In this document: positions 35,702 to 62,190 of the stretch, in pieces
Numbering within the stretch: position 1 is the stretch's first letter
Layout: every line of letters begins with the position of its first letter
From: Clostridia bacterium
GTDB lineage: Bacteria; Bacillota; Clostridia; Lachnospirales; Lachnospiraceae
Direction of reading: 5' to 3'
Assembly: GCA_910574255.1 (NCBI GenBank)
Contig: CAJTAK010000001.1
Location: forward strand, 83,779 to 147,778
Length of the DNA stretch: 64,000 nt
Notes under the pieces: generated by a model
Database searches by the model: none
Told to the model about the DNA's origin: nothing
The model's input: the letters and a program-made list of their open reading frames with translations, nothing else
Program-made: the position numbers and the translations under genes

Positions 35702-35746
35702 AAGTAGTATAGGACTATGAAATATAAAAATTATGAGGAGAACGGG

Positions 35747-38626: not shown

Positions 38627-38859
38627 TATGAGACTACTCCTTTCAAGGAGAAAAAATCAATCTATTGCTTCAAAAAACTGCTTTTAAGCTGGAATTGCTT
38701 GGAAATCCTTTAGGGTTTCCGCTTAATAATATACCACATGTCATGGAAAAATGAAATGTTGTTTCTTGTTGTAAAATTAATTTGGGAATGATGAAGGCTT
38801 CTACGGATTACAGCAGAGTACAGAAAAAGTTGCTCAAACAGAAAAAGCTCGTATTTTTC

Positions 38860-38869
38860 GGGGGGGGGG
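38860..38869. repeat. Homopolymeric G10 tract in the promoter region of the downstream surface-protein gene
   Basis: cgggggggggg at 38860-38869, about 70 nt upstream of the ATG at 38941. The surrounding DNA is about 33% GC, so a G10 run is conspicuous. Confidence 0.9.
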
Positions 38870-38940
38870 TAACAAAAATTTGATAGCAACTTATATTGCA
38901 GAAATTATGACTCGTAATTTTCTGCATAGAGACAACAAAT

Positions 38941-40668: not shown

Positions 40669-40829
40669 ATTTTTGATATATAAATTTTTACTACATGCAA
40701 TCTGTCACAATGGCAGATTGCTTTTTGTATGAGGATATTTCGCTGAGCATTATAAGACGAATAAAGCTGCCTGCATAACACAAACAGCTTATTCATATAC
40801 ATAAGAGGTTGCTATTATTGAAAACACGT

Positions 40830-41966: not shown

Positions 41967-42145
41967 ACTCCTTTTTCTATTGTAAGTCTTAAAAAGGCTT
42001 ACCTTATATCATAAATAAAAGAAAAGGATCAATAACCAGACAGGAAAATAGGATGCTGTGGCAGAGTATGCGATTGGAATTCCAAACAAACAGCCCCACT
42101 GGAAAGGCGGGGCTGTCTGCATATAAATCTACAGTTTGTTAATTT

Positions 42146-42415
42146 TTAGGCTTCATAGTAGAACGCTTCAAAAAGCCTTTCACAATCTTCAACGGACTGC
42201 AAGTTATAATGCCCGTGGTTAAGTGTCTGCAGTCGTTCATTCCATGAAGACCAGAAAGCATATGAGCCATCTTCTTTTTTTGCAGAAACCATATATAGAT
42301 AATTGTCCGCTGGATGATAGGATTTCTGCCTGATTTCCAATACTGTATACTTAGGAAGATGCTTCTTAAAATAAAGCTCTATATGCTTCCTTACTTCGTT
42401 TAAATTAATCGCCAT
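42146..42415 (-). CDS. Small hypothetical protein (89 aa), last gene of the minus-strand ssb operon
   Basis: ORF, 15-nt gap to the upstream gene. Confidence 0.4.
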   Translation of the reverse strand: MAINLNEVRKHIELYFKKHLPKYTVLEIRQKSYHPADNYLYMVSAKKEDGSYAFWSSWNERLQTLNHGHYNLQSVEDCERLFEAFYYEA

Positions 42416-42430
42416 AAAATGATTCTCCTT

Positions 42431-42892
42431 TCAAATCAATGGTAACTTATAAAAGGAATCCCCCATAACTTTGATTAATGTTTGGGCTTCCCTTTTATTA
42501 CAGGATTGCAGAAAATGGTAGAATATAAGTCCTGAAAATGCCTGCTGTAAAGTTCTGTGGTCTATCGCCATCTCCTTTGCCACTTTTTCCATCTTCACAT
42601 TGCTGACAGATTCCATCTTCTTCTGGACAAAGGGAATCTCCGCAAGCTGTCTGCCTGTTTTGGCGGATGCTTCATTCCTAAAATCTGTCCTGTATCCGCT
42701 GTCAGATATTACCTTTATCCAGCAGATATCCAAATCCTCCATCTGCTTGGAATCCCTCTGTTCCTCTGCTATCTTATCAGGCTTGAAGAACATGTTGTTT
42801 ACCTCATGGGAAAAATACTTCGCAATCTCCTGTGGATTTGCAGTCTTTAAATCCATCATAATATCTACCTCTTTTCCTTTATGCTTTTGCAA
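42431..42892 (-). CDS. Hypothetical protein (153 aa)
   Basis: ORF overlapping the J-domain gene by 14 nt. Confidence 0.4.
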   Translation of the reverse strand: MQKHKGKEVDIMMDLKTANPQEIAKYFSHEVNNMFFKPDKIAEEQRDSKQMEDLDICWIKVISDSGYRTDFRNEASAKTGRQLAEIPFVQKKMESVSNVKMEKVAKEMAIDHRTLQQAFSGLIFYHFLQSCNKREAQTLIKVMGDSFYKLPLI

Positions 42893-43409
42893 GCTTCTTC
42901 TTTTCCTCTGTGTCTTTTTTAAACCTGACTTCTACACAGCCATATTTTTCCCTGATATAACTCATGGAAGCAGATTTTGAACTGAACTTATGGAAATCAT
43001 CAAAATGCAGATACCACATCTGCTTCTGACTTGCCCAATGGAAGCCCAGTTCTTTCAGTTCCTTTCGGTAAGCATAACAGTTTGACACCCATATCCAGAC
43101 ACCAATAATCTCAACCTTGATTCCTTCAAACCTTGCAAGCTGCATGACCTTTTCCCTGATCAGCTTGTCTTTCTGCCAGTCATAGGCCTGCTTCTGCTTG
43201 TCGGTTGCATCTTTGTATGTATCCTTATGCTCAAAGTCACTTTTCAGTCTCTTGAACAAAATGTCATACTCTGCATTGACTTCCTTGATGATTTCTTCGG
43301 AACCGCCGTTATCAGGATGATGCTTCACAACAAGCTTCCTGTACAGCTTCCGCAGTTCTTCAAGCGACTTCACATCTTTGAACCATTTCATGCGTATCTC
43401 TCCCTTCAC
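42879..43409 (-). CDS. J-domain (DnaJ-like) protein
   Basis: LRKLYRKLVVKHHPDNGGSEEIIKEVNAEYDILFKRL: the HPD tripeptide in a typical J-domain helix II/III context. No DnaJ Zn-finger or C-terminal domains. Confidence 0.7.
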   Translation of the reverse strand: MKGEIRMKWFKDVKSLEELRKLYRKLVVKHHPDNGGSEEIIKEVNAEYDILFKRLKSDFEHKDTYKDATDKQKQAYDWQKDKLIREKVMQLARFEGIKVEIIGVWIWVSNCYAYRKELKELGFHWASQKQMWYLHFDDFHKFSSKSASMSYIREKYGCVEVRFKKDTEEKKKLAKA

Positions 43410-43870
43410 AATAAATCTGCTTCCTTAAAACTCAGGTAACTGTTTCCGCCGATAATGATGTGGTCTGCTAAAGCGATATGTAACAGAGCACCTGATTCCT
43501 GAACCTTTTTGGTTAATTTTATATCCGTGTCTGTCGGCGTCGGGTTTCCAGAGGGATGGTTATGGCAGAGTACAATCTGCACCGCCCCAATAAGCAGAGC
43601 CCGTATGAACACTTCCCTTGGGCTTACAAGGCTTGCATATACAGTCCCTTTGGAAAGAAAAAATATTCCCAATATCCTGCAGGAACTGTTAAGGGCGATC
43701 AGGTAACAGTGTTCTTCCGCCAGTTCGCCTATATGCAGGAGGGACTGCAGCATTAAAACGATATTTTCAGGGTGTTTTATATTTGCCCCCTCATAATTGA
43801 TCCCTTTCTCTTTTACTAAAATGGTTGTGCCGTCATTGGCAATCCTCGTGTCATAGAAATTAATCCTCAT
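43406..43870 (-). CDS. radC: RadC-like JAB/MPN+ domain protein
   Basis: The JAMM motif HNHPSGNPTPTDTD plus upstream Glu and the Ser of the JAB domain. 154 aa, as in the short mobile-element RadC versions. Confidence 0.8.
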   Translation of the reverse strand: MRINFYDTRIANDGTTILVKEKGINYEGANIKHPENIVLMLQSLLHIGELAEEHCYLIALNSSCRILGIFFLSKGTVYASLVSPREVFIRALLIGAVQIVLCHNHPSGNPTPTDTDIKLTKKVQESGALLHIALADHIIIGGNSYLSFKEADLL

Positions 43871-43929
43871 GATGCGTTCCTTTCATAAACAAGGGATACC
43901 GCAGAAGCGGCATCCCTGTTGAAATAACA

Positions 43930-45255
43930 TTATTCTGTGTCAGGGTTTATTTCTTCGGGAGGCTTATCTTCCTCTGTCCGTGTGCCATGTTCCAAATCAT
44001 CAGACACGGCATTGGGGAATATGCCCTCGATTGTGGGAGCAGGAGCAGATTCTTCTTCCAGGATTGGACTTTCTTCTGTATTTTCTGCAGGCAATCCATT
44101 TTCTGTTCTGTCCGTATCCGTAGGCATACTGCCATCTGGGAGGGATTCTCCGTCAGGGGAGCTTTCTTCCGATAAAGGAATATCCTGTCCATTCTGTTCT
44201 GATTTTTCAGTCTCTTCCAGCTCAAAATACTTTTTCAAGGAGCTTTCCATAACCTCAATCCTTTTTAAAGTCTTTTCTTTTTTGATGCTGCCCGAAGAAC
44301 AGTACTGCTTATAGTCCTCATAGCATTCATCAAAAAAGTAGGAAAACCACTGCCTGAAATACATGGGGCCTACCCGATAGATGCCTTTTGTGGAATCATA
44401 ATCTGTTCCCATCGCAGTATCAGCCACAAGGAAAACAATTGGAATATTGATTTTTTTAAGCATCTTGTCTTTTTCAGGAAATACCTTTTCCAGATAGTCA
44501 ATGATGTCATAAAGACGTTCTTTCTGTTCTTCCGAATAATTATTTTTGATATGTGCGGCATACCGCATAATTTCATCCGCAGAAATGGAGGAAAATTCAT
44601 AACCCTCATGTCTGCTGTCCAGAAGCATCATGGACTGTAGCAGGGTACACATATCATCAGATTTCCTCCGCTGCAGGGCAGAGAACTGGCAGATATCCGA
44701 AAAGAACCTGTCAGCAAGGAGCGACTTGATGAACTTCGCATTTTCAACACCGCATAAAGGCATTGCCTTTTGGGGCTTCGACAATGGGGCACTGTTATTC
44801 AGACGGAAGAAAATCTCTTCTATTAGGTCATCGTCCGCATCTTCAAAGCCATAGATTGTGAACTTAAAACGAAGTATTTCCTGCTGGCATTCTGCATCAA
44901 GGTCAGTGAAATATCTGCCGCCCAGTTCATAAGTAACTTCGTCAATGACAACGGATGGGGTTTCCTCATCCAACGGGTATCTCCCGTCTATGTAATCAAA
45001 AATCGTTGTCAGACGCTGTTTCCCGTCAAGGATTGAATAGGAATAATCCTTTTCACTGACTGCTTCTTTCAGACAGTAGACAGGGGGAACAGGGTAGTTT
45101 GCAAGGATGCTGTGGATCAGCAGGCTCTTTTTCAGTTTGTCACCGTCCCACTGTCCGCTTTGGCGTTGGATTACGTGATCCATTTGAAGGGTATTTTTCC
45201 CATCATACATGTTCTTTAGATTTTTTACTGTCCAGTTTAAAGTTGTCTTAATCAT
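43930..45255 (-). CDS. DUF262 (ParB/Srx-like nuclease-NTPase fold) domain protein with acidic C-terminal tail
   Basis: DGQQR-type motif SILDGKQRLTTI and an upstream HVIQRQ motif. The C-terminal 100 aa are Glu/Asp/Pro-rich low complexity. No DUF1524/HNH partner domain. Confidence 0.7.
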   Translation of the reverse strand: MIKTTLNWTVKNLKNMYDGKNTLQMDHVIQRQSGQWDGDKLKKSLLIHSILANYPVPPVYCLKEAVSEKDYSYSILDGKQRLTTIFDYIDGRYPLDEETPSVVIDEVTYELGGRYFTDLDAECQQEILRFKFTIYGFEDADDDLIEEIFFRLNNSAPLSKPQKAMPLCGVENAKFIKSLLADRFFSDICQFSALQRRKSDDMCTLLQSMMLLDSRHEGYEFSSISADEIMRYAAHIKNNYSEEQKERLYDIIDYLEKVFPEKDKMLKKINIPIVFLVADTAMGTDYDSTKGIYRVGPMYFRQWFSYFFDECYEDYKQYCSSGSIKKEKTLKRIEVMESSLKKYFELEETEKSEQNGQDIPLSEESSPDGESLPDGSMPTDTDRTENGLPAENTEESPILEEESAPAPTIEGIFPNAVSDDLEHGTRTEEDKPPEEINPDTE

Positions 45256-45572
45256 ACTGATTTCTCCTTTGCGAAATGGATTTTTATATCCATAAAAATG
45301 GAAAGTTTCAATTAGGTTATTGGGATGCCGTATTCACGGGCTGCATCGCTTATTATCTCGATGCAGTCCTGTATGACAGATGCTGAATCAACAAACAGCA
45401 GCCTTAAAATATAATCGCCTGTATCATCCAGACTTCCCAAAGCAGAAAGATAATCCCTCCGCTTATCCGTCAGTGCAGATACGGCCTTTTTGAAAAGTCC
45501 CTCTGCATCAAGGTTTTGGGATTCTGTATTGATGCAGTCTGTTTTCTCTCTGCCATTCCATGTAACTGGCCT

Positions 45573-45911
45573 TCAAACGTCCTGCTTTTTGGTTTCCAGA
45601 AATTCCAGTGAATCAATTACGATTTCATTGGAATATACTTTCTTCCCGTTTTTCTCATAATTATTATTTTTCAGCTTTCCAGAAATGAGGAGTTTTGTGC
45701 CTTTAGAGCAATGCATTTCTACAATCTCTGCCAGTATGTTCCAGCAGGTACATCTGAAAAAGTCAGTAGGGTAGTTTCCCTGTTCGTCCCTTTTCATGGA
45801 CATATCTGGTACGGCAAAATTAAATATGGCATGTGCCACGGGTTCAGTACCCATGCGGTACTTTACTGTTGGATCTTCCGTTAGCCGCCCTGTCAATATG
45901 ATTTTGTTCAT
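45573..45911 (-). CDS. ssb: Single-stranded DNA-binding protein (short, no acidic tail)
   Basis: OB-fold start MNKIILTGRLTEDPTVKY…, 112 aa. Confidence 0.85.
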   Translation of the reverse strand: MNKIILTGRLTEDPTVKYRMGTEPVAHAIFNFAVPDMSMKRDEQGNYPTDFFRCTCWNILAEIVEMHCSKGTKLLISGKLKNNNYEKNGKKVYSNEIVIDSLEFLETKKQDV

Positions 45912-46019
45912 GCTTCATTCCTGCACTTTGAAAGTGCTTATCCTTTCTTATAAATTTTGTTTTTATAAAATTTCTTGAATCTTCCTATAGGGAACTTTTC
46001 GATACTGCCATGTAGAATC

Positions 46020-46916
46020 TTAAAAGACAAATCCCTTGTCTTTGTTGTAGTAATAGGCCTTAGTTCCTAAAATCTCGTTTGCCTGTACCTGCATCATATT
46101 TACTTCCAGATTCATTTTGGTAAGGGAAATGGCATCAAGCCCGCAGGATTCAGGAAGCAGCAAGGCTTCATGTACGGAAGAAAAGATTACATAGAAACTG
46201 CCATACTTTCGAGTAAAATCTTTCAATATATCATCGAATAGTATCGTAACAGCTCCTGCAACCCTTTTCTTGTTTGACAGTACCCAAAAGGGGCAGTCAG
46301 AAGCCTCAACTTCTTTAAAATCCTGAGCTATGCTTTGCAGGACATTTCCCATGTTCTGCAGGCTGGCTCCCATCATAGCCCTTGTATTATGTATTGCATG
46401 AGATATCAGTGATTCCTGATCTACACCCCAAAGGTTTAAGTGATAGTTGTGTACCAGAAAACTTGCCGTTTCGTTTTCTGTTGCACTGACCATGCAGCGG
46501 ACAATAACCGCAAAGTCATCAAGGAACTGACGGTGGGGTACATCCTGCAGTAATTCCTTGTTAAGATGCCTGTTGACCAGTTCCACATAAATCTTTTTAC
46601 GGGGCAGATCGTAAGTTAAAAATGGGGCAGTATCAAAATGGCGGGGATAAACCTTTGAATCAGAATAAATCTGCAGGATTCTATCCATAACATCATCAAT
46701 AGATACACCATTATCAAGTGCTTCATAAAAAGATTCCAGATAAATGGTGGGGGAGATGTTTTCGTTGCCATGCCTGATTGTCAGTCCATCCAGCTTCTCA
46801 TTTGTCTTTAAGACTTTCTGGATGGAAAGGTGGAAGCTATCTCCTAATTTCTTAGAAAGTGCCTCCAAAATCTGTTGTTTCATTGCTTCTTTGTTCATGT
46901 ATTTTTCTCCTTTCAA
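46020..46916 (-). CDS. Hypothetical protein (298 aa), first gene of the minus-strand operon
   Basis: ORF only. Confidence 0.45.
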   Translation of the reverse strand: MKGEKYMNKEAMKQQILEALSKKLGDSFHLSIQKVLKTNEKLDGLTIRHGNENISPTIYLESFYEALDNGVSIDDVMDRILQIYSDSKVYPRHFDTAPFLTYDLPRKKIYVELVNRHLNKELLQDVPHRQFLDDFAVIVRCMVSATENETASFLVHNYHLNLWGVDQESLISHAIHNTRAMMGASLQNMGNVLQSIAQDFKEVEASDCPFWVLSNKKRVAGAVTILFDDILKDFTRKYGSFYVIFSSVHEALLLPESCGLDAISLTKMNLEVNMMQVQANEILGTKAYYYNKDKGFVF

Positions 46917-47534
46917 GGTTGTCTGGACAAAAAAGCAAACATCACTTTATGATGTCTGCCAGTCCATAAGTTACAGTTATCATATTTCACAAAACCTGCT
47001 ATTCGCCAAAATAGTCTTACACTGTATATTGTAGAAGGATATGCATATAAAATAAGAAAGCAGAAAGATAGGATGCTGTCTGTCGGGATGCTATCCAGTC
47101 GTGGAGTTATTCATTGAAGACCATTTTTTATAATGAAAGTGTATAGAGAAAAGGAAGTCATTTTTGACTGTTTGAAAAGGGGCCTTAACATAAGGCATTC
47201 ATCCATAATCTATACTTCTTATAAATATATCAGGGTGCTGTTTAGCATTGTTTAAAAGGGGATGTTTCGGCAGTTCCATACAGGGTACAGGATATATGAT
47301 ATTCCTGCGGACCTGACTACCGCCAACTTAGTTGACATCAGGGTGCCTTGCTTACAGGGTAATGTTATGAGGAAAATGGATGAACAGGGAAAGCGGTAAA
47401 AAGGAAGAATGATATACAGGGTTCATCGGATAAGATGAAGAGCAAAAACTTTTGTTTTTGGGTGGGAATGTCTTTTTGGGATGTTCCCGCTTTTTTATAT
47501 ACATAAAAATGTTCTGGAACAGGAGGTGAAATTG

Positions 47535-48140
47535 ATGAAGGAACATATCAAGCATTGGTATCCAAAGGACGAGAGATTTTTCAAAGTGTTATCCATAGCA
47601 GGGAATATCAGGCAGGAGGATGCCGCAAAGATAGATATTTCGACAAGCAGGCTCAAAAACATGGAGAAAGATAAGCTGATTGAGAAAGTGACTTATCCAT
47701 CCAGATATAATAAGAACCCAAGAAGCAATGTAAGTTATGCATTGACAAAGAAGGGGAAAGATTTTGTCTGTCAAAAGTATGGGATAAGCAGATGCCAGAA
47801 TGCACATGCAGCAGAACATAACTGCAAAGTTGCCGAGGTGATATGCAGTCTGGATAAAAAAGAGATTGAGACAGTGCAGGCAGAATGGCAGACAAGGGAT
47901 CAGATGGAAGAAGCACTGGAGCAGATGAGGCAGGAGGGTGATTATGACCAATATGACTATTACATGGATTTGTGGAAAGCAGGGCTTATCAGTGCGGTGG
48001 ATGTGGCATATATTTCCGTAAAGACAGGGGAGATGGTGTGCTGTGAGGTAGTAACAAACAGTTATAAAGATTCAGATAAACAGGCAAAGGAATACTGTGG
48101 GGAGATTTTGCAGATGGAGGTTGAGTATGTGAGGGTGTGA
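47535..48140 (+). CDS. Hypothetical protein whose 3' end is the recurrent junction of the downstream cassette array
   Basis: ATG at 47535 behind RBS AGGAGGTGA; the track start 47481 is in frame. The last 180 bp recur at 49212-49390 and the last 16 bp at 50935-50950. Confidence 0.5.
   Translation: MKEHIKHWYPKDERFFKVLSIAGNIRQEDAAKIDISTSRLKNMEKDKLIEKVTYPSRYNKNPRSNVSYALTKKGKDFVCQKYGISRCQNAHAAEHNCKVAEVICSLDKKEIETVQAEWQTRDQMEEALEQMRQEGDYDQYDYYMDLWKAGLISAVDVAYISVKTGEMVCCEVVTNSYKDSDKQAKEYCGEILQMEVEYVRV
47962..48140 (+). repeat. Cassette-junction repeat copy 1 (intact 3' end of gene 47535..48140)
   Basis: About 179 bp, about 85-88% identical to copy 2. Ends with ttgagtatgtgagggtg TGA. Confidence 0.85.
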
Positions 48141-48331
48141 TTGAAAAAGATAGTATTTTATATAAAATATTAGTATACAGATAATAAAAATAACAAAAAG
48201 CAGTTCATTAGTATTGTCAATTATGTGGGTATGTGATATAGTTCAATGGTAATATGTTGTGTAAAGGAAATGATTTTAGTGTGCACAAAGACGGGGAATG
48301 TGTAATATAATATATTTACAAAGGAGAAATA

Positions 48332-48967
48332 ATGCGATTTTCTAAAGTAAAAGAGAAACATATATATAATGTTATGTTCGACCCTGTTCGTCAATGTGAA
48401 TTTAATTTAACACATCCTGCAGTTGTCTTAAAAAAGAATAATGATAGTAAAACATGTGTTGTTATGCCCCTGACAACAGAACCTAATGGAGTTGGTGAAA
48501 ATAAAATTGATATTGGATGTATTTCTACTTTGCCAAGTTCGTTAAGGGGCAATAATACATATGCAGTGTTCAATCAAGTAAGAACAGTGAATGTCAACCG
48601 TTTTATAGCATTTAAAGAAGTGATTGACGGGCAAAATACACCTATAGATTGCTCAATGGATGATTTTACTTTTGGAATTTTGTTGCAAAAAGCATTATCA
48701 GATTTGACTTTTGCATACACAATTGACGAAAAAATGGATTTATATCAAAAATTGTATAATGAAGAAAAATTGAATAAGTGCATTAGTATTGCATATAATA
48801 TTAAAAGATTGGATGCAGAATTTGAGGCAATGAATAGCCAGCGGATTCTTTTAAACAATGAGCTTGGGCAGTTGCTTGATAATTTTGATTATGAATTATC
48901 TCAAACTGAACTAGAAAATGGAATTCAACAGGTCTTTGAAAATGCGAAAAAGTCTGTTGACAGTTGA
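48332..48967 (+). CDS. MazF/PemK-like toxin-fold domain fused to a roughly 100-aa helical C-terminal domain (cassette 1 cargo)
   Basis: N-terminus IYNVMFDPVRQCEFNLTHPAVVLKKNNDSKTCVVMPLTTEP matches the MazF/PemK signature (Y.P.RGDI…FDP..G.E…RPAVVLS….vVvPlTS). No antitoxin ORF upstream. Confidence 0.55.
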   Translation: MRFSKVKEKHIYNVMFDPVRQCEFNLTHPAVVLKKNNDSKTCVVMPLTTEPNGVGENKIDIGCISTLPSSLRGNNTYAVFNQVRTVNVNRFIAFKEVIDGQNTPIDCSMDDFTFGILLQKALSDLTFAYTIDEKMDLYQKLYNEEKLNKCISIAYNIKRLDAEFEAMNSQRILLNNELGQLLDNFDYELSQTELENGIQQVFENAKKSVDS

Positions 48968-49211
48968 TTGTTTATGTGTTATCCTAACTATTAAGAAGAG
49001 AGTTGATAACTCGGACAAAAAGTAGTATCGGGTATGAAATCCCAACAAAAAAGAAAATTCTAAATACAAAAAAGCATTGGATTTTAGTATTCAATGCTTT
49101 TTTGTTGTAAAACTTCTGATTGTACAAGAAATCTACTGTAAGCATAAAACAGGTTTGCTAATGTATAAGGATACAAATAAAGTGGATGCGAGCAACATCT
49201 GTCTGTAAGAT

Positions 49212-49390
49212 ATATGGATCTGTGGAAATCAGGGCTTATCAGTGCGGTGGATGTGGCATATATTTCTGCAAATACAGGGGAGAGGGTGTGCTGTGAGGTG
49301 GTGACGAACAGCTATAAAGATTCAGATATACAGGCAAAAGAGTATTGTGGGGAAATCCTGCAGACGGAGATTGAGTATGTGAGGGTGTAG
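49212..49390 (+). repeat. Cassette-junction repeat copy 2 (decayed duplicate of the gene 3' end)
   Basis: Aligns base-for-base with 47962-48140 (…cagggcttatcagtgcggtggatgtggcatatatttc…ttgagtatgtgagggtg TAG). It retains an open frame encoding …YMDLWKSGLISAVDVAYISANTGERVCCEVVTNSYKDSD…EYVRV*. Confidence 0.85.
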
Positions 49391-49702
49391 GGTAGGGAGA
49401 AACTACATTTAGATTTCAGAACAAAGAATGAAAAAAGGTATACTTATATTTTTATTGCAGTGAAAATATTCTTGTTTTAGAAAGTAGGAAATAGGTATAT
49501 GTAATCAAAAAAGATACATAAAAAGAGATAATAATATGATAGTAGTCTCTATATTACACATAATTTAACATGATAATATGTAAGTGTTTTTGTGTGGCAA
49601 TACAAAAAAAGTATTGTGTAAAAAGAGTCATTATAATTATGTGGAAAAATCTGAAAAATCGTGATATACTATACAAATCAAACTTAGAAAGAAGAAAAGT
49701 GT

Positions 49703-50521
49703 ATGGGGAAAAAGCGGTATACATTATATTTGGATGAAAGCAGGACTACCCAGGCACATCAAGGAACCCCTTTTTTTAGTATGGCGGGCATTGTTATACT
49801 GGATAAGCATTATCCAGTCATTCAAACAGAAATTGATGTGTTAAAGCAGAAAACATGGGGAGATTTACCTAATTACAAAGACATCATACTGCACCAGATG
49901 AATATTTCTAATGCGGCTAAGGATAAATTAGATTTTGTGAAATATCCTGAATATGAAAGATTCAAAAGCAAGCCATTTAGAAGGGAATTTAATAGAAATC
50001 TTGCGAATATATATGATTGTAAGAAAATTACGATTATTGGAAGCAGTATTAATGAATCATATTTGAAAAAGTGTTTTGAGGTATCCGTTGTTCAGGAAGG
50101 AAACAGGATTTATAGAAATGTACCTGATGAGAAATTGATTGCATTACAACTCTTATTGGAAAATTACTGTCAATTTTTATGTGAACATAATGGTCTTGGG
50201 AAAGTGATATATGAGTCTGTTGGAGATATACAGGATGAGGCTTTGCGGTGCAGGTTTTATAATATTAAACTTATGGGCTCAATGTATATTACACAAGATG
50301 CAATGGCAAACCATTTGCTTGGAATTGATTTTATCCCTAAGTGCCAGAATAATGCGGGGTTACAAATTGCAGATTTTGTACCTAATGCTTTTGCAAGAGA
50401 CCATGCGGGGTTTTATCAGATTGACAGGGATGAAATCTTATTTAATAAAATGAAATATTATAGATATGATGGTATGGTTGCAAGGGATAAGGATAGGTTT
50501 GGTGTTAAATATATGCCTTAA
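49703..50521 (+). CDS. DUF3800 family protein (cassette 2 cargo)
   Basis: N-terminal YTLYLDESR and C-terminal GLQIADFVPNAF match the DUF3800 signature. Confidence 0.65.
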   Translation: MGKKRYTLYLDESRTTQAHQGTPFFSMAGIVILDKHYPVIQTEIDVLKQKTWGDLPNYKDIILHQMNISNAAKDKLDFVKYPEYERFKSKPFRREFNRNLANIYDCKKITIIGSSINESYLKKCFEVSVVQEGNRIYRNVPDEKLIALQLLLENYCQFLCEHNGLGKVIYESVGDIQDEALRCRFYNIKLMGSMYITQDAMANHLLGIDFIPKCQNNAGLQIADFVPNAFARDHAGFYQIDRDEILFNKMKYYRYDGMVARDKDRFGVKYMP

Positions 50522-50766
50522 TATCCTATAAAAATGAAGTTTATATTAGTTTTTTCATTGTAAACAGATTTTTAATAGATTGTCTACATAAAATTAGAAA
50601 AATTGAATATTGACAAGCAGTGCTGCATATAGTAATATGGATATAGGGATTGGGAAGCAGTCTTGTCATATGCCAAGAACTAGTGTATTGGTATATGTAT
50701 CAGGAATAGAGTCCAAAGCTTGAGTATGCTAATAAGCATACAGCCGTAATCGAACCCTATATCGAA

Positions 50767-50797
50767 AGAGCTACCGTGCTAGGTGGCTCTTTTGTGT
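50767..50797 (+). terminator. Terminator-like hairpin downstream of cassette 2
   Basis: AGAGCTACC (50767-50775) pairs with GGTGGCTCT (50782-50790, one G·U) around loop GTGCTA, followed by TTTTGTGTT. Preceded by the small hairpin GTATGCT-aata-AGCATAC. Confidence 0.45.
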
Positions 50798-50934
50798 TGC
50801 AGAAACACTGTTTTTTAGGGTATCACGTTAAAAGATTTGCTGTGCTGGCTGTTAAAGTGTATGCATATGAAAATTATAATATCACGGTAGTGATTGACTT
50901 TATGGAAAGATGGTATAATGGAAAATATCACTAA

Positions 50935-50950
50935 TGAGTATGTGAGGGTG
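50935..50950 (+). repeat. Cassette-junction repeat copy 3 (16-bp core only)
   Basis: tgagtatgtgagggtg is identical to the last 16 bp of copies 1 and 2 (48122-48137, 49372-49387). Confidence 0.7.
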
Positions 50951-51274
50951 CAAAAATTATAAAGAAAAAAATTAGAATAGATTTACGGAGTACCGCTTGT
51001 GAGTAAAAAACTTCTGCTTGTGCATAAAATCTATTGTAATCCAGAAAATAGCCTGTATAATAAGTAAAAATATGATATTTAGCGATAAAAAGGCAGATGC
51101 TGGTAACATCTGCCTGTAAAATCCAGTGTGCAATCATTCGTCCACACACACTTGATTTCTGTATTATTATAACGTAAAAAGACAGAAAAACAATAGATTT
51201 ACTGTATGATAAACAGTATTTGAATGATAGATAGAATGATTGCTCCTGACATCTGTGATGAAGGGAGTATTTTT

Positions 51275-52912
51275 ATGGAATTTAGAACAATAGAGCAGGA
51301 TGCACAGCTTAAGACATTAGATGATTATTTTGAAGTGAGGAATCCATATCTTTTATCAGAATTTTTTAAGCGGGAAAATATCTATGATGATGACCTGCTG
51401 GCAGATGAAGGATGTTATACATTTTTTCAGGAAATCCATGCACATAACCTTAAAAGTATGCTTGTCAATTTTACCTGTATCTATGCACCGCCGATAGACA
51501 GGGATGCTTATGGGGCGAAGGATGCAATGGACATCCTTGAAGAAAAGCAGAAAGAGGATACTTTTGTTTTTGAGGTATTGATACCAAAAGGAAAAGTAAC
51601 GGAAAGAAAACTTAGGTCAATGGTGGCATTTGCGAACCATCTTGGAATGAGCATTTATATGAGCGTGGCAGATTATGTCAGGATGAAAAGGGTGTCGGAT
51701 AACTTGTATGGGGTAAGTTCCATTGTCCTTGATCTGGATACATACCATTCGATTTATGAGTATGATACGGATGAAGAAATGATGCAGGAGATGCGGCCAG
51801 TGATTGACAGGATTGGCATAGAGCCTAATATGTATATCAATTCAGGACGTGGCAGGTATCTTGTCTATTCTTTCAATAATATCAATTTAAGTGTCCCAGA
51901 AATGAGGAAGCTGTATCAGGAGACAGTAAAGAAGCTGATTTTCCAGTTTAAGGAGTTTGGAGCAGATGCGAAATGCTCCGATATCACAAGGGTATTCAGG
52001 GTTCCTGGCAATACCAACCCAAAGACAGGGGAGAAGGCATATATTGTGGAATGCGTTGAAAGCAGGGGAACCTTATCAGAACTTGCTGCGGCAGTCGGCA
52101 TATGCAAAGGGAAGACTGTATCTGAGAAGAAGAACAGGAGCAGGCAGAGAAAATATGAGATGTATCATCTCTCTTTAGGGAAGAGCAGGTATACAAAGGT
52201 CAATATGCAGAGGGATGATGATTTTAATACCCTGTTGGAGCTTCGGGGCTATGATATGGAGGGTTATAGGAATATTTTGTTTCATTTAATGTCGGTGAAC
52301 TGCTTTTATCTTGGCATGGATGAAGATTCCGTAAGGGATTATCTGGATGAAATAAACAGGTCATTAATTGTACCATATGATTCCCTTGATGCAGTCATCC
52401 GTTATGCAAAGTCTAACCATGAGAGGTATGAAGATGATTATGAGGGAGCTGTCAAATATACAAACCGCACGATTGTGGGGCTTCTTGATATCACAGAGGA
52501 AGAACAGAAGTATATGAAACAATTAATCGGGCAGGAAGAAGCCGACAAAAGGATAGAAGAATCTGGTAAAAAGAAAATAGATAACCAGATGAAGAAAAAG
52601 CGGGAAGGCACGGAGAAAAAAGCTGTCAAGTTAAAAGAAGAGATGCTTGCACTTAGATATGGCAAATTGCTTGACAATAAGCAGATTGCTCAGGAAGTCG
52701 GCAAAAATGAGAAGACAGTGGACAGGCAGATTGGGCTGACACCAAAGTTTGTGCTAGTTGGAAGGATGAGCAGGGAACAGGCAGTCTATTACTATTGCCA
52801 TTGGGAGCATAAAACAAATGTTGAGATTGCAGAGATTATGGGTATATCTGTAAGCAGCGTACATAATGCAAAGAGGAAATTGAAGGATATGGAACAGTAT
52901 GCTGACATGTAA
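51275..52912 (+). CDS. Replication initiator / primase-like protein (prim-pol-like N-domain, PriCT-like region, C-terminal HTH)
   Basis: …RVFRVPGNTNPKTGEKAYIV… resembles plasmid/phage primase-Rep catalytic regions. …YRNILFHLMSVNCFYLGMDEDSVRDYLDEIN… resembles the PriCT_1 motif. C-terminal sigma70-r4/LuxR-like HTH VEIAEIMGISVSSVHNAKRKL. ATG at 51275 behind RBS GAAGGGAG; the track ORF starts at 51224. Confidence 0.55.
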   Translation: MEFRTIEQDAQLKTLDDYFEVRNPYLLSEFFKRENIYDDDLLADEGCYTFFQEIHAHNLKSMLVNFTCIYAPPIDRDAYGAKDAMDILEEKQKEDTFVFEVLIPKGKVTERKLRSMVAFANHLGMSIYMSVADYVRMKRVSDNLYGVSSIVLDLDTYHSIYEYDTDEEMMQEMRPVIDRIGIEPNMYINSGRGRYLVYSFNNINLSVPEMRKLYQETVKKLIFQFKEFGADAKCSDITRVFRVPGNTNPKTGEKAYIVECVESRGTLSELAAAVGICKGKTVSEKKNRSRQRKYEMYHLSLGKSRYTKVNMQRDDDFNTLLELRGYDMEGYRNILFHLMSVNCFYLGMDEDSVRDYLDEINRSLIVPYDSLDAVIRYAKSNHERYEDDYEGAVKYTNRTIVGLLDITEEEQKYMKQLIGQEEADKRIEESGKKKIDNQMKKKREGTEKKAVKLKEEMLALRYGKLLDNKQIAQEVGKNEKTVDRQIGLTPKFVLVGRMSREQAVYYYCHWEHKTNVEIAEIMGISVSSVHNAKRKLKDMEQYADM

Positions 52913-52925
52913 GGGTATGGAGGAA

Positions 52926-52952
52926 TCCATATCCTATTTTTTGTTGTGGTGT
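52926..52952 (+). terminator. Putative terminator after the primase/Rep gene
   Basis: TATGGA-ggaa-TCCATA followed by tcctATTTTTTG. Confidence 0.4.
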
Positions 52953-53436
52953 AATGCAAAGTGATTTCTTAATCAAATACATAAATTTGAAACGGCTATT
53001 TTAAGACAATTTCTTTAAAAGGCATAAGGCTACCTAAAATACTAAAAACTCGCTCTACGAGGCTCACGGAAGCTCATAGAGACATAATACTATATCCTAA
53101 TTGTTAAAAAATTAAGAATAAATGAATTGTAAATATGGTTGTTGAGATAGAGATTATTCAAAATAGGAATAACATTAAAAACAAGAAAAAGCATCATTTT
53201 CATCAAATTTTTGAAATTTTAAACGGACAAAGATTTTTGGTCCGCTCGAAAGAGTATATGTTTGGTGGTATCAGTTTTTTTCTCAATTTTGCACACTTAT
53301 TATAAAAAGTATCATATGTGGATGTAGGACAATATGGGAGTATTGTGGGGAGATATTTCAGACATAGGAAGAGTATGTGAGAGCATAGTAAAGAGGGGGA
53401 TACCATATGGCCTCCCCCTTTTGATGATATAGAAAA

Positions 53437-54279
53437 TCATGCAACTATGTCTATATTGAAGTAATATCCAAGGACTTCCAAAGCCTTCTGGTCACGGTAC
53501 ATTTTCAAAACCACATCTTCTGGGAAACAGCATCTTTTTTTCACGATTGGCTCAAAATTGCCTATTAGGGAAATTTCCTTTAGGCAGGTGTCTTGAAATC
53601 CGTCAGGAGGGAAATACAAGGATTCTGCATTACTCCATAATGACAAGGATTCTAAACCATCTGCACCTGAAAAAGTGCGTTCTTCCAGCTTGTCAAAGCT
53701 GCCCTTTATTTCAAGAGATTTAAGGGAATGGCAGCCACTAAATAGATCGTTTCCTAATTGCTTAATCTGGTATCCTAAGTCCAGGGTTTCCAGACTGGTA
53801 CACCCTGCAAAAGCCCCATCTCTGACAGTCTTTAAAATGTAAAAATGTGCTTCTTTCAGGCTTTTACATCCTTTAAAGGCATTATAGGAGATTGTGTTTA
53901 GACCAGACTGTGCCCGAATAGATTGCAGGTTTTTGCAGTTTAAGAAGGTTTCTTCCTTAATAATATGCAGGCACCTTGGAAGCAGTATCTCTTCAAGTTC
54001 ACTGCCTGCAAAGCATCTCTTGCCAATTTTAAGACCTCTTGGCAGTTTTACATTTAGAACGTGTGCATTTTCCAAAGCACAGTCATCCAGATATTTTACA
54101 CCTTCCTCTATGCAGAGGAGGTTGATCCTCAGATAATCAAAACAATGGGGGCTGATGCGGTCAATCTGCTTTCCCTTATATTGATGTGGGATGATAAGAT
54201 AATCCAGCCTCTCCCACATCATGCTATGATTACATTTAACTAATGTGTTGGTTGTTTCGTCTATAACGAATCTTTCCAT
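53437..54279 (-). CDS. Leucine-rich repeat (BspA-type, LRR_5) protein, no signal peptide
   Basis: Repeated …F.gC.sL..i.l… units: CFAGSELEEILLP, FLNCKNLQSI, AFKGCKSLKEAHF, AFAGCTSLETLDL, FSGCHSLKSLEI. Confidence 0.65.
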   Translation of the reverse strand: MERFVIDETTNTLVKCNHSMMWERLDYLIIPHQYKGKQIDRISPHCFDYLRINLLCIEEGVKYLDDCALENAHVLNVKLPRGLKIGKRCFAGSELEEILLPRCLHIIKEETFLNCKNLQSIRAQSGLNTISYNAFKGCKSLKEAHFYILKTVRDGAFAGCTSLETLDLGYQIKQLGNDLFSGCHSLKSLEIKGSFDKLEERTFSGADGLESLSLWSNAESLYFPPDGFQDTCLKEISLIGNFEPIVKKRCCFPEDVVLKMYRDQKALEVLGYYFNIDIVA

Positions 54280-54587
54280 ATAAATTTCCTCCTTTTTGAT
54301 TTTCTAGTGTTATTGTCTCATATGGAAAAAGGGAAATCCAGAGATAGGAGAATTGGGACGTGCTGATTGAGCACGAAAGGAATATATTGATTAAAGAGTA
54401 AAAAGGGATGCTAAATTGATAATGGTTATTGGGAAATAGGTAGATGGATATAGGGGAAATGTTTTTTTTGTACAGATATGTTTTGTAAAACTGGTTGACT
54501 GATATGAACGAAAAATATAAAATAAATATAGAAAAATTTGTCAAAGTAATGGTTATTTGAAAAAATAAGATTGGGGATAAAGGGCTT

Positions 54588-55802
54588 ATGAATATACTTG
54601 TGATTGGGAATGGGTTTGATTTGGCTCATGGATTGCCTACAAAATATGAGAATTTTTTGGAGTTTTGTGAAAGAGTCAAAGGAATTTATGATTTTCCTAA
54701 AAATGCATCCTTAGGTGATTACAGAGCTAAATATATTGATAATTGGAAAATGAATGATTATATAAAGACTGCATTATTGGAGGATTTTGAGAGAAAGCAT
54801 AGCCAAGGTGTTAAGATTAGTAATAAAGCATTGGAGGAACTGTATAAGCATATTAGACAAAACACGTGGCTAGAATATTTTTTGAAATGTCATAGTTTTG
54901 TGGGGGAAAATTGGATAGATTTTGAGATGGAAATTTCGAGAGTTATTCAAAGTCTGGATCAATTAAGAGAGGTGACAAAAAAGAATTTAGATATTCAGCA
55001 AGTAGATCAAGAAAAGCAAGAAATATTAATGTCTTTGTTAAAAGCATCAAAAGGAAGTACGAAAACAGATTATGGGAGTATTAAAGGAATAGATAACTAT
55101 GTCCAATTTCTAAATGTAGAATTAGAAAGATTAATCAGAGCATTAGAAATATATATTGCAGAATTTATTGCTAAAATTTCGACATCTCTAAGAAATAGTG
55201 ATATAGGACAACTTGCCATAGGGCATGTGCTGTCATTTAATTATTCTGATACATATAAAAAATTATATGGAGCAAATAAAAAAATTAGATATGATTATAT
55301 TCACGGCATAGCCAACATTAATAATACATTACAATCTAACAATATGGTTTTAGGTATTGATGAATATCTTTCTATTGAAAAAAGAGATAAAGAAATAGAA
55401 TTTATTGCATTTAAAAAATATTATCAAAGGATATTTAAAGGAACAGGTTGCAAGTATAAAGAATGGTTTTTTGATATGAAAGAAAAAAGTAAAACTATAG
55501 AGTCTGAACTAAGGCATCAATATCCTGTACAAATTCCATTTGAAAAGTTTACAAATGATACAAAAAATTATCTTTATATCTTTGGCCATTCATTGGATAT
55601 AACAGATAAAGATATATTTAGAGATTTGATTTTAAACGATAATGTGTATACAACAATTTTTTATTATAACAAGAATGATTTAAGTTCAAAGATTGCAAAT
55701 CTTGTTAAAGTACTAGGGCAAGATGAATTAATAAAAAGAACTGGTGGCAGTACAAAAACAATTGAGTTTAAGTTACAACAGGATATGATGGAGAAAAAAT
55801 AA
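54588..55802 (+). CDS. abiH: AbiH-family abortive-infection protein
   Basis: N-terminus MNILVIGNGFDLAHGLPTKYENFLEF matches the conserved AbiH start (…IGNGFDL.HGL.T.Y.DF). 404 aa. Confidence 0.7.
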   Translation: MNILVIGNGFDLAHGLPTKYENFLEFCERVKGIYDFPKNASLGDYRAKYIDNWKMNDYIKTALLEDFERKHSQGVKISNKALEELYKHIRQNTWLEYFLKCHSFVGENWIDFEMEISRVIQSLDQLREVTKKNLDIQQVDQEKQEILMSLLKASKGSTKTDYGSIKGIDNYVQFLNVELERLIRALEIYIAEFIAKISTSLRNSDIGQLAIGHVLSFNYSDTYKKLYGANKKIRYDYIHGIANINNTLQSNNMVLGIDEYLSIEKRDKEIEFIAFKKYYQRIFKGTGCKYKEWFFDMKEKSKTIESELRHQYPVQIPFEKFTNDTKNYLYIFGHSLDITDKDIFRDLILNDNVYTTIFYYNKNDLSSKIANLVKVLGQDELIKRTGGSTKTIEFKLQQDMMEKK

Positions 55803-55858
55803 TTTTATGGAATTGTATTAAAAAATGATAAAATTTATTATAGGAGGGATAATTTAAA

Positions 55859-57982: not shown

Positions 57983-57997
57983 TTTAAGGAGGAAAAT

Positions 57998-59236: not shown

Positions 59237-59242
59237 TTCTAA

Positions 59243-62188: not shown

Positions 62189-62190
62189 AC

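What the first reader, a model, noticed from the sequence alone, without database searches (positions are those of the whole stretch)
47535..50950. Tandem cassette array in which each cargo gene is preceded by a decaying copy of the 3' end of the same upstream gene
The last about 180 bp of gene 47535..48140 recur at 49212-49390 (about 85-88% identity, with their own in-frame stop). The terminal 16 bp tgagtatgtgagggtg recur a third time at 50935-50950. Each copy is followed by a separate single-gene unit: the MazF-like fusion, then DUF3800, then the primase/Rep region. This is the footprint expected from serial site-specific integrations into the 3' end of one target gene. In that model each incoming unit brings a replacement 3' end and pushes the older junction downstream. 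An alternative reading is a recombination hotspot exchanging small defence cassettes. The 16-bp core is a candidate att site for the recombinases at 61-64 kb.
Basis: seen in the sequence. Interest (0 to 1): 0.7.

Follow-up and report, generated by a model that had tools for sequence, protein, structure and literature searches.

The report
Stacked defence cassettes with gene-end scars
Downstream of a conserved DNA-binding-protein gene in a mobile island of a gut Lachnospiraceae bacterium, cargo genes (several defence-type) have been stacked one before another, each older unit keeping a leftover piece of that gene's end; related genomes show this comes from ordinary homologous and illegitimate recombination, not from a dedicated attachment site.

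Summary
The last 178 nt of gene 47535..48140 recur at 49211-49388 (89%). The 16-mer TGAGTATGTGAGGGTG occurs exactly three times.

Ninety related loci from gut Lachnospiraceae explain the array. The gene is the conserved left anchor of a variable cargo region in an island next to rumA. Relatives exist with each unit placed directly behind an intact anchor. Ten contigs match the window exactly but lack the 1,250-bp MazF unit. Their intact gene end is the window's copy 2 (98.9%).

The MazF unit (1,070 bp) is identical in elements whose backbones are only 79-93% identical, so it moved recently. Two filled/empty pairs show reciprocal chimeric repeats. Their exchange points differ (47971-47978 versus 48019-48078), and a third lies at 48093-48136. 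Remnant lengths also vary: 178, 16 and 51 nt here, and 89-111 and 15-17 nt elsewhere.

This pattern fits illegitimate joins that create the scars, followed by homologous exchange through them. It does not fit site-specific integration at the 16-mer, which simply encodes the conserved C-terminus EYVRV. The closest analogues are T6SS immunity arrays and Rhs/CDI orphan arrays. This is a new example of a known process and is of moderate interest.

The parts
35717..37381 (+). rumA/rlmD-like 23S rRNA (uracil-5)-methyltransferase gene with a C-terminal extension. It is the probable chromosomal target next to which the island lies.
   Evidence: Pfam tRNA_U5-meth_tr 1.5e-22. GC falls from about 0.48 to 0.35 at about 37.3 kb. 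Window 1-37 kb carries chromosomal genes. That this is the integration site is an inference.
37400..47534 (.). Conserved left backbone of the island: DUF5688, SSB, GmrSD_N/DUF262, RadC and DnaJ-like genes on the minus strand.
   Evidence: Pfam. Collinear at 66-90% identity in L001-L015 and identical in L016 (3535/3535 for 44000-47534).
47535..48140 (+). Anchor gene: a 201-aa protein with a winged-helix DNA-binding domain. It is the conserved left border of the variable cargo region. In this window it is a hybrid: up to 47978 it equals the L016-type allele, and from 47979 it is the allele that travels with the MazF unit.
47961..48140 (+). Copy 1: the functional 3' end of the anchor. Over 48019-48136 it is identical to the intact L042 gene.
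48141..49210 (+). Unit M1: promoter-like site 48214-48242, MazF/PemK-like fusion gene 48332..48967, terminator hairpin at about 49067-49104, and a truncated leader of a primase gene (49060-49210).
   Evidence: Pfam PemK_toxin 1.2e-07. 1070/1070 identical in L026, L002, L029 and L035, and 2 mismatches in L027/L030, although flanking backbones are 79-93% identical. Leader homology. Promoter scan.
49211..49390 (+). Copy 2: the displaced resident 3' end of the anchor (codons 143-201 plus TAG). It is 98.9% identical to the intact gene end of L016-L025. The two differences (49213, 49220) are the donor state.
49391..50934 (+). Unit M2: DUF3800 gene 49703..50521 plus a 413-nt non-coding tail that holds a candidate structured RNA (50640-50795).
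   Evidence: Pfam DUF3800 5.6e-12. In L016-L025 this unit follows the intact anchor directly with identical spacing. RNA fold z = -6.65.
50935..50950 (+). Copy 3: a 16-nt remnant of the anchor end (codons for EYVRV, with no stop codon after it).
   Evidence: Exact match. No significant extension upstream. L043 shows the native arrangement, with the intact anchor followed within 89 nt by the primase leader.
50951..53337 (+). Unit M3: leader and promoter (TTGTAA-16-TATAAT at 51034-51061, hairpin 51091-51115), primase/Rep-like gene with sigma-70 r4 HTH 51224..52912, terminator 52912-52935, and a trailing non-coding segment.
   Evidence: Pfam. Homologous leader in L001, L006, L012, L026 and L043. 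Promoter/terminator scan.
53338..53388 (+). Copy 4: a decayed remnant of the last 17 codons of the anchor (EYCGEIFQT*EEYVRA*). It may extend back to about 53323.
   Evidence: 76-82% to copies 1 and 2. In L009 the intact gene end occupies this exact position relative to the LRR gene (window 53337-54382 = L009 2899-3946). In L053 the LRR gene starts 51 nt after the anchor. A similar remnant is present in L001.
53389..60415 (.). Unit M4 and the rest of the variable cargo: bidirectional terminator 53391-53422, LRR_5 gene (minus strand) 53437..54279, AbiH 54588..55802, 707-aa P-loop protein, KAP NTPase (PADLOC PDC-S20) 57998..59236, and a 366-aa gene on the minus strand.
   Evidence: Pfam and PADLOC. 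Content differs among relatives.
60416..64000 (+). Conserved right border: the recombinase operon (395-aa tyrosine recombinase 61001..62188 and a second gene from 62191, which is 620 aa in relatives and is followed there by 551-aa and 192-aa genes). It is not linked to the cassettes by any evidence.
   Evidence: Pfam Phage_integrase 5.7e-07 for the first gene only. Homology with L018 and L008 resumes at 60416-60453. Operon structure.

Best explanation
The region after the anchor gene is the cargo hotspot of a family of integrative elements in gut Lachnospiraceae. New cargo arrives on DNA from a related element that carries the anchor gene followed by a different cargo.

Step 1 (inferred) creates the scar. 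The incoming DNA pairs with the resident anchor gene on its left. Its non-homologous right end is joined illegitimately inside the last 180 nt or so of the resident anchor. An equivalent route is an internal deletion in two tandem elements that ends there. The result is an intact hybrid anchor, the new cargo, a leftover 3' fragment of the resident anchor of arbitrary length, and then the old cargo with its own promoter. Repeating this stacks units, newest first. Here the order is MazF, then DUF3800, then primase/Rep, then LRR/AbiH and the rest.

Step 2 is shown for the MazF unit. Once a unit is bracketed by the anchor end and a long remnant (178 nt), the two direct repeats act as portable homology arms. 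The 1,250-bp unit can loop out and re-enter, or be lost, by ordinary homologous recombination with the anchor end of any related element. Crossovers fall wherever the alleles are identical enough.

The 16-mer is shared only because every remnant runs to the last codon of a gene whose C-terminus is conserved.
For: (1) Every unit is found directly behind an intact anchor in other elements. DUF3800 is so placed in L016-L025, the primase leader in L043, and the LRR gene in L009/L053. The 218-aa cargo is so placed in L010/L012, whereas in L051 and L056 it sits behind remnants of 89-111 nt and 15-17 nt.

(2) Remnants start at different codons (143, about 166, about 185, about 196). The junction 49210|49211 joins a truncated promoter leader to mid-gene with 3 nt or less of microhomology.

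(3) The copies are different alleles, not in-situ duplicates. Copy 2 is 98.9% identical to the intact L016 gene end. Copy 1 over 48019-48136 is identical to the intact L042 gene.

(4) M1 has 0 mismatches in 1,070 bp between the window and L026-type elements. Their anchor 5' parts are 93.2% identical and their backbones 79-85%. L016 equals the window over 3535/3535, 426/426 and 1544/1544 nt on both sides of the missing unit.

(5) Chimeric repeats are reciprocal in two filled/empty pairs, with different exchange intervals. The L016 allele equals window copy 1 up to 47978 plus copy 2 from 49221, giving an exchange within 47971-47978. The L042 allele equals L026 copy 1 up to idx 147 plus L026 copy 2 from idx 88, giving an exchange within 48019-48078 in window-equivalent coordinates. 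Window copy 1 switches from L026-copy-2-like to L026-copy-1-like within 48093-48136.

(6) Copy 2 of L027/L030 is a patchwork of alleles.

(7) The same kind of scar exists at the primase gene end in L012.

(8) 7 of 20 distinct downstream arrangements carry at least one remnant.

(9) The mechanism has precedent: homology-facilitated illegitimate recombination and sequential displacement arrays (PMC5361080, PMC3240628, PMC3967940).
Against: No experiment was done and all steps are inferred from comparisons. Within each filled/empty pair the direction (insertion or deletion) cannot be read from the pair itself. Only the identity contrast requires at least one insertion into a diverged background. 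The window's particular combination (MazF unit in front of DUF3800) was found in no other contig, and its hybrid anchor protein is not on record. One site (G at 47979) matches neither sampled parent at that position. The exchange at 47971-47978 sits close to the left edge of the repeat, which a site-specific event could also produce. For copy 3 only a similar native arrangement was found, not an identical one. Whether the primary joins arose from one-sided homologous capture or from deletion within tandem elements cannot be told.
Confidence: 0.72

Rival explanations
1. Small integrase-less cassettes integrate site-specifically into a 16-bp att core at the end of the anchor gene, catalysed in trans by the tyrosine recombinases at 61-64 kb. 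This would resemble tandem accretion of integrative elements or CIMEs at the 3' end of a gene.
For: There are three exact copies of the 16-mer. DUF3800 unit M2 is bracketed by two of them (49372 and 50935). Recombinase genes lie 10 kb downstream. Empty sites exist.
Against: Repeat lengths are 178, 16 and 51 nt here, and 89-111 and 15-17 nt elsewhere. Mapped exchanges lie 45-150 nt upstream of the 16-mer, in different intervals. There is no dyad symmetry or hairpin at the 16-mer. The 16-mer encodes the conserved EYVRV end. The right end of M1 is a randomly truncated promoter leader. No 16-mer-like site occurs near the recombinase module in six relatives. The recombinase module is itself the conserved right border of the hotspot in diverged elements.
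Confidence: 0.07
2. Tandem whole-element accretion followed by internal deletion. Two related islands sat head to tail at the same chromosomal site. A deletion from just after the cargo of the first into the anchor 3' end of the second fused them, and this happened repeatedly. This is an alternative route only for the primary scar-forming step of the best explanation.
For: It gives the same products: variable remnant lengths, illegitimate junctions, and a single intact anchor. Tandem accretion of integrative elements is documented (reviews PMC5704250 and PMC5812530, listed; not read in detail).
Against: No tandem pair of whole elements was seen among 90 loci. Each event needs a deletion of about 20 kb or more. 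It does not by itself explain the reciprocal chimeras or the transfer of the 1,250-bp unit between diverged backbones.
Confidence: 0.15
3. The window-specific junction (MazF unit in a DUF3800-type element) is an assembly chimera of two co-occurring strains, joined through the identical tracts of 37-44 nt in the repeat.
For: This combination was found in no other contig, and the hybrid protein is not on record. The switch points coincide with the longest tracts of identity between alleles.
Against: The two-copy arrangement around M1 is real. It was assembled independently in at least 10 samples and in an isolate genome (L002). G at 47979 next to T at 47987 is a combination absent from both putative parents. 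Shared tracts under 50 nt would not mislead assemblers at their final k-mer sizes (inference). Copies 3 and 4 are unaffected, being identical in L016-L025.
Confidence: 0.05
4. Ancient in-situ duplication of the gene end, with later decay, unrelated to cargo insertion.
For: Copy 4 is decayed and has an internal stop codon.
Against: Copies 1 and 2 each match intact alleles of other elements at 98.9-100% but match each other at only 89%. Relatives have 0, 1, 2 or 3 remnants with different cargo.
Confidence: 0.01

Closest known systems
Immunity-gene arrays of Vibrio cholerae type VI secretion clusters, built by sequential displacement of effector-immunity modules (Kirchberger et al. 2017, PMC5361080)
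   Same: A conserved upstream gene serves as the homologous anchor. Incoming modules insert next to it and push older units downstream. Remnants of the 3' end of the displaced gene are left behind. The proposed mechanism is homology-facilitated illegitimate recombination plus frequent homologous exchange, without specific integration sites.
   Different: There the displaced gene is the variable effector and the retained cargo is its immunity gene, on a chromosome. Here the anchor is a conserved winged-helix protein whose end does not vary. The cargo is made of independent genes: defence, toxin-like or replication genes. The locus lies inside an integrative element of Gram-positive anaerobes.
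Orphan toxin-immunity modules downstream of rhs and cdiA genes (e.g. Koskiniemi et al. 2014, PMC3967940)
   Same: Each unit of the array starts with a fragment homologous to the 3' core of the main gene. These fragments serve as substrates for homologous recombination that swaps or deletes units.
   Different: In Rhs/CDI the recombination changes the toxic tip of the main protein. Here the main protein is unchanged, and recombination only adds, removes or moves separate genes.
Tandem accretion of integrative elements and CIMEs at the 3' end of a target gene by site-specific recombination (reviews PMC5704250, PMC5812530; details from general knowledge)
   Same: Repeated partial copies of a gene end separate successive units, and the newest unit lies next to the intact gene.
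   Different: There the repeats are att sites of constant extent with a fixed crossover, made by an integrase. Here extents and crossovers vary and no integrase involvement is indicated.
Integron cassette arrays
   Same: Single-gene units are stacked next to a fixed point, with the newest unit nearest to it.
   Different: There are no attC-like imperfect palindromes and no adjacent intI/attI. The units have their own promoters and terminators. The boundaries are coding-sequence fragments.
Variable-region hotspots of mobile elements that collect defence genes (SXT/R391 ICE hotspots, P2/P4 hotspots; from general knowledge, not tested here)
   Same: Conserved core genes flank a region whose content differs among otherwise collinear elements and is rich in Abi, TA, TIR and NTPase genes.
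   Different: This is a different element family and host. The scars of anchor-gene ends document how units were added.

Membership tests
Site-specific integration / att-flanked accretion (tyrosine-recombinase type) | Direct repeats of constant extent (the att core) at every junction | tested here: not met
   Remnants are 178, 16 and 51 nt in the window, and 89-111 nt (L051) and 15-17 nt (L056) elsewhere.
Site-specific integration / att-flanked accretion (tyrosine-recombinase type) | Strand exchange at one fixed position within the core | tested here: not met
   Exchange intervals are 47971-47978 (window/L016), 48019-48078 (L026/L042) and 48093-48136 (window copy 1 versus the L026 copies).
Site-specific integration / att-flanked accretion (tyrosine-recombinase type) | Inverted recombinase-binding half-sites around the core | tested here: not met
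   No inverted repeat spans the 16-mer in any copy. ssDNA folds are no better than shuffles.
Site-specific integration / att-flanked accretion (tyrosine-recombinase type) | A cognate recombinase that acts on the site | not testable with these tools
   Recombinase genes are present at 61-64 kb. No 16-mer-like site lies near them in relatives. Activity cannot be assayed.
Integron-like cassette array | An attC (imperfect palindrome) at the end of each cassette and an adjacent intI/attI | tested here: not met
   No palindromic structure at the boundaries. The nearest recombinase is 10 kb away. The cassettes have their own promoters and terminators.
Sequential-displacement / orphan-module arrays (T6SS E-I, Rhs, CDI) | An intact conserved gene heads the array, and each downstream unit is preceded by a 3' fragment of that gene | tested here: met
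Sequential-displacement / orphan-module arrays (T6SS E-I, Rhs, CDI) | The same units occur directly behind the intact gene in other genomes | tested here: met
   L016-L025 (DUF3800), L043 (primase leader), L009/L053 (LRR gene), L010/L012 (218-aa gene).
Sequential-displacement / orphan-module arrays (T6SS E-I, Rhs, CDI) | The fragments are foreign alleles rather than in-genome duplicates | tested here: met
   Copy 2 is 98.9% identical to the L016 allele but 89% to copy 1. Copy 1 is 100% identical to the L042 allele over 118 nt.
Sequential-displacement / orphan-module arrays (T6SS E-I, Rhs, CDI) | The displaced gene is a polymorphic toxin and the retained cargo is its immunity gene | tested here: not met
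   The anchor is a winged-helix protein with a conserved C-terminus. The cargo is MazF-like, DUF3800, primase/Rep, Abi and similar genes. So this works like these arrays but is not a toxin-immunity locus.
Cargo/defence hotspot of a mobile element | Conserved flanking core genes with variable content among collinear relatives | tested here: met
   The left flank is conserved up to the last codon of the anchor, and the right flank from 60416. There are 20 distinct arrangements among 41 loci.
Cargo/defence hotspot of a mobile element | The content is anti-phage defence | tested here: inconclusive
   Family matches only: AbiH, Abi_2, AbiJ, KAP/PDC-S20, TIR, OLD-like ATPase and DNA methylase. The MazF-like and DUF3800 proteins have no PADLOC hit. 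There is no functional test.

The most novel reading that the evidence does not exclude
The 1,250-bp MazF unit, and by extension any cargo that has acquired a long anchor-end remnant, may be a recombinase-less mobile cassette. It would spread among diverged members of an element family by carrying a copy of the conserved end of a core gene as a portable homology arm, looping out as a small circle and re-entering by host homologous recombination. If this is frequent and selected for, rather than an occasional by-product, it would be a general way for defence genes to hitch rides between mobile elements without any dedicated enzyme or site.
Probability: 0.25. Interest if true: 0.55.

Novelty: new member of a known kind. 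Interest (0 to 1): 0.35.

Why it matters
This locus gives a nucleotide-level record of how a mobile element in gut anaerobes accumulates and exchanges small defence or toxin genes. Arbitrary end-joins leave fragments of a conserved gene, and those fragments then serve as homology arms for further exchange. It shows that repeated gene-end fragments in cargo arrays need not mark att sites, which matters when genomic islands are annotated automatically. It also defines a conserved anchor gene and border that can be used to harvest cargo genes (MazF fusion, DUF3800 with an associated RNA, and unknown 218-aa and 240-aa proteins) from Lachnospiraceae metagenomes.

Tried and rejected
(1) Plasmid and phage collections: megablast of 47400-53500 found no match.

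(2) Rfam: nothing in 47-54.6 kb apart from a chance miRNA hit (E = 0.64). The only hit in the whole window is a tRNA-Trp at 29447.

(3) Extended homology upstream of copy 3: a gapped local alignment scored about 3.4 sd above the shuffle mean but below the best shuffle (75 versus 47 +/- 8, max 77). It was rejected.

(4) The 170-nt match between window 37378-37549 and L013 19135-19297 was considered as the att repeat of the whole island. It also occurs inside the elements (L013 about 1830, L004 3087-3150) and looks like a small promoter-RNA-terminator unit. It was therefore not used as an att site.

(5) Sequence search of the anchor, the MazF fusion and the 620-aa recombinase-like protein against PDB gave no meaningful hit. 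NCBIfam gave nothing useful.

(6) Independent confirmation of the window's MazF+DUF3800 arrangement failed. The exact hybrid protein is not on record in either the 201-aa or the 219-aa form. The hybrid 63-mer is absent from viral contigs. The seven 16-mer hits in viral contigs were not examined; a hit count of this order could arise by chance in a collection that size.

(7) The truncated anchor P0066 seemed to break at the same codon as copy 4. Its contig shows a small deletion/frameshift allele, not an insertion.

(8) A double crossover from a linear L026-type donor does not fit as the source of the window's unit. Window copy 1 is L026-copy-2-like at 48017-48092, so a circular or tandemly amplified intermediate, or an unsampled donor, is needed.

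Full report
OBSERVATION. The sequence is as described. Positions 47961-48138 and 49211-49388 are 89% identical over 178 nt without gaps. The second copy ends in its own TAG and forms a 58-aa ORF. The 16-mer TGAGTATGTGAGGGTG occurs exactly at 48122, 49372 and 50935, and nowhere else in 64 kb with fewer than 3 mismatches. First, a fourth, degenerate copy lies at 53338-53388. It is 76-82% identical over 51 nt, reads EYCGEIFQT*EEYVRA*, and sits just before the terminator of the LRR gene. Second, 49060-49210, immediately upstream of copy 2, is a truncated copy of the terminator, promoter and leader that precede the primase gene at about 51000-51140. Around copy 3 nothing beyond the 16 nt is significantly similar to the gene.

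CONTEXT. Window 1-37 kb is host chromosome: purA, pilus and secretion genes, PcrA, and a rumA/rlmD-type methyltransferase at 35717..37381. GC content drops at about 37.3 kb, and a low-GC island follows. Its minus-strand backbone carries DUF5688, SSB, GmrSD_N/DUF262, RadC and DnaJ-like genes. Then comes the 201-aa gene 47535..48140, followed by the cargo:
- a PemK/MazF-like fusion;
- DUF3800;
- a primase/Rep-like protein with a sigma-70 region 4 HTH;
- an LRR_5 gene on the minus strand;
- AbiH;
- a 707-aa P-loop protein;
- a KAP NTPase (PADLOC PDC-S20);
- an unknown 366-aa gene.

COMPARATIVE ANATOMY. Ninety related loci were collected from mouse and other gut Lachnospiraceae genomes and metagenomes. 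The backbone is collinear up to the last codon of the 201-aa 'anchor' gene. Homology resumes at about 60416, before the recombinase operon. Between these borders the content varies. The slot right after the anchor holds one of the following:
- an unknown 240-aa gene;
- an N6/N4 DNA methylase;
- a ParA-like ATPase;
- Abi_2;
- an M48/M78 peptidase-like gene;
- an unknown 218-aa gene;
- an ankyrin-repeat protein;
- the MazF fusion;
- DUF3800;
- nothing.
Further cargo includes AbiJ, TIR, helicase and OLD-like ATPase genes. Among 41 loci with at least 2.5 kb downstream there are 20 distinct arrangements, and 7 of them carry at least one anchor-end remnant.

EACH UNIT HAS A 'NATIVE' POSITION BEHIND AN INTACT ANCHOR.
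(i) L016-L025 are identical to the window over the backbone (3535/3535), the anchor 5' part (426/426), and DUF3800 and everything downstream. They lack 1,250 bp. Their intact anchor end is the window's copy 2 (178/180), and DUF3800 follows with the same 313-nt spacing.
(ii) In L043 the intact anchor is followed within 89 nt by the primase leader and a primase-like gene. This is the arrangement implied by copy 3.
(iii) In L009 and L053 the intact anchor is followed directly by the terminator and the LRR gene. Window 53337-54382 aligns with L009 2899-3946, so copy 4 occupies the place of the L009 gene end.
(iv) The 218-aa gene follows the intact anchor in L010 and L012. In L051 and L056 it lies 2.4-2.7 kb downstream, behind remnants of 89-111 nt and 15-17 nt, with an identical distal flank.
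Remnants therefore begin at codons 143, about 166, about 185 and about 196. The primase gene end shows the same kind of scar in L012.

THE MAZF UNIT. M1 (48141-49210) is identical (0 of 1,070 mismatches) in L026, L002, L029 and L035, with 2 mismatches in L027/L030. It always ends at the same junction with a 178-nt anchor fragment. In those elements the anchor 5' part is only 89-93% identical to the window and the backbone only 79-85%. The unit has therefore moved recently between diverged elements.

Site-by-site comparison gives two filled/empty pairs with reciprocal chimeras. The L016 allele equals window copy 1 up to 47978 and window copy 2 from 49221, so the exchange lies within 47971-47978. 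The L042 allele, an intact anchor whose downstream flank is that of L026 copy 2, equals L026 copy 1 up to index 147 and L026 copy 2 from index 88. That exchange lies within 48019-48078 in window-equivalent coordinates. In addition, window copy 1 is like L026 copy 2 at 48017-48092 but like L026 copy 1 at 48137 and beyond. An exchange between the two repeats within 48093-48136 must therefore have preceded transfer. This requires a looped-out circle or a tandem amplification as intermediate, or else an unsampled donor. A double crossover from a linear L026-type donor does not fit. Copy 2 of L027/L030 is a patchwork of alleles.

Three different exchange intervals, each lying in a tract of allele identity, are the signature of homologous recombination and not of site-specific recombination. 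Within each pair the direction (gain or loss) cannot be read from the pair itself. The identity contrast nevertheless requires at least one gain in a foreign background.

HOW THE SCARS ARISE (inferred). The junction 49210|49211 joins a promoter leader, cut at an arbitrary point, to codon 143 of an anchor with 3 nt or less of microhomology. Variable breakpoints and arbitrary left partners indicate illegitimate joining. Two routes give this product. One is one-sided homologous capture of DNA from a related element: homology in the anchor on the left, and an illegitimate join inside the resident anchor end on the right. This has been described for natural transformation and conjugation (PMC3240628) and proposed for T6SS arrays (PMC5361080). 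The other is deletion within two tandem elements. The data do not separate them. Only events whose right join falls inside the anchor end both keep the old cargo intact and leave a remnant. That is why arrays show gene-end fragments.

THE ATT HYPOTHESIS. Several results speak against it. Repeat extents and crossover points vary. The 16-mer has no dyad symmetry or hairpin and encodes a conserved peptide end. Stop codons after it differ (TGA, TAG, TAA), so the module border is the end of the coding sequence. No similar site occurs within 8-10 kb downstream of the recombinase genes in six relatives. The two 16-mers that bracket DUF3800 are the only feature that still looks att-like. With L056 showing a 15-17-nt remnant from an independent event, short remnants are part of the same spectrum.

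CAVEATS. The window's own combination (MazF unit in front of DUF3800) was not found elsewhere. An assembly chimera is unlikely. The two-copy structure is well attested, including in an isolate (L002). G47979 next to T47987 is absent from both putative parents. This has not been excluded without reads. The cargo functions are family assignments only.

COMPARISON AND VERDICT. The architecture and the inferred mechanism match sequential-displacement arrays: V. cholerae T6SS effector-immunity clusters (PMC5361080) and Rhs/CDI orphan modules (PMC3967940). The differences are that the anchor is a conserved winged-helix gene, the cargo consists of independent defence, toxin or replication genes, and the locus is the cargo hotspot of an integrative element. 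It is not an integron-like or att-based system. This is a well-documented new example of a known evolutionary process. It is useful for annotation and as a source of cargo genes, and is of moderate interest.

Noticed in passing
window 50610-50795 (+): A promoter-like site (TTGACA-17-TAATAT) is followed by a strongly structured RNA candidate of about 155 nt: a multi-branch fold closed by a 9-bp stem, then an intrinsic terminator. MFE is -63.7 kcal/mol and z = -6.65 against shuffles. It has no Rfam match. It lies just downstream of DUF3800 and accompanies it in all L016-type loci.
   Followed up: partly
window 37400-37550; L013 about 1750-1870 and 19135-19297; L004 3087-3150: A conserved small unit (promoter-like AT-rich stretch, about 60-nt core AGGTGAG...CTATCTCCT, terminator hairpin) lies right after the rumA stop. 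It recurs at two places in L013 and inside L004. It could be a small RNA of the element family. It was first mistaken for an att repeat.
   Followed up: partly
window 61001-64000 and L036 10001-15270: An operon of four genes (395, 620, 551 and 192 aa). Only the first matches Pfam Phage_integrase. The 551-aa protein has a faint NCBIfam integrase hit, and the 620-aa protein matches nothing in Pfam, NCBIfam or PDB sequences. The layout recalls multi-recombinase modules such as Tn554 tnpA/B/C or 'recombinase in trio' elements (from memory, not tested).
   Followed up: partly
L012 13465-13591 and 14815-15330: The 3' end of the primase gene and its downstream segment are duplicated around an insert of about 1.2 kb. 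L005, L007 and L056 retain only a primase 3' remnant. This is the same scar type at a second gene of the hotspot.
   Followed up: partly
window 48332-48967 (+): The MazF/PemK-like domain (aa 9-97) is fused to a C-terminal extension of about 110 aa. There is no adjacent antitoxin-sized ORF and no PADLOC hit. It has its own promoter-like site (48214-48242) and terminator (about 49067-49104).
   Followed up: no
window 51034-51223; L001, L006, L012, L026, L043: A conserved leader of about 190 nt precedes the primase/Rep-like genes. It has a promoter (TTGTAA-16-TATAAT) and a conserved hairpin GGCAGATG...CATCTGCC (51091-51115). It could be a regulatory leader or an origin-related structure.
   Followed up: no
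L037 1-3300: An IS66-family element is inserted in the homologue of the 366-aa minus-strand gene (window 59243..60343), with window 59568-59644 present on both sides of it.
   Followed up: no
window 37180-37381: The rumA-like ORF carries a C-terminal extension of about 90 aa beyond the methyltransferase domain (Pfam match ends at aa 460 of 554), adjacent to the island border. In streptococcal ICEs, integration into rumA exchanges the gene's 3' part (PMC4701971), so this tail may be element-derived.
   Followed up: no
L026 8368-9134: The 97-aa and 122-aa ORFs behind copy 2 of the L026-type elements are fragments of an Abi_2 gene (the 122-aa ORF matches only the last 23 positions of the Pfam model). 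The older cargo there is therefore a pseudogene.
   Followed up: no
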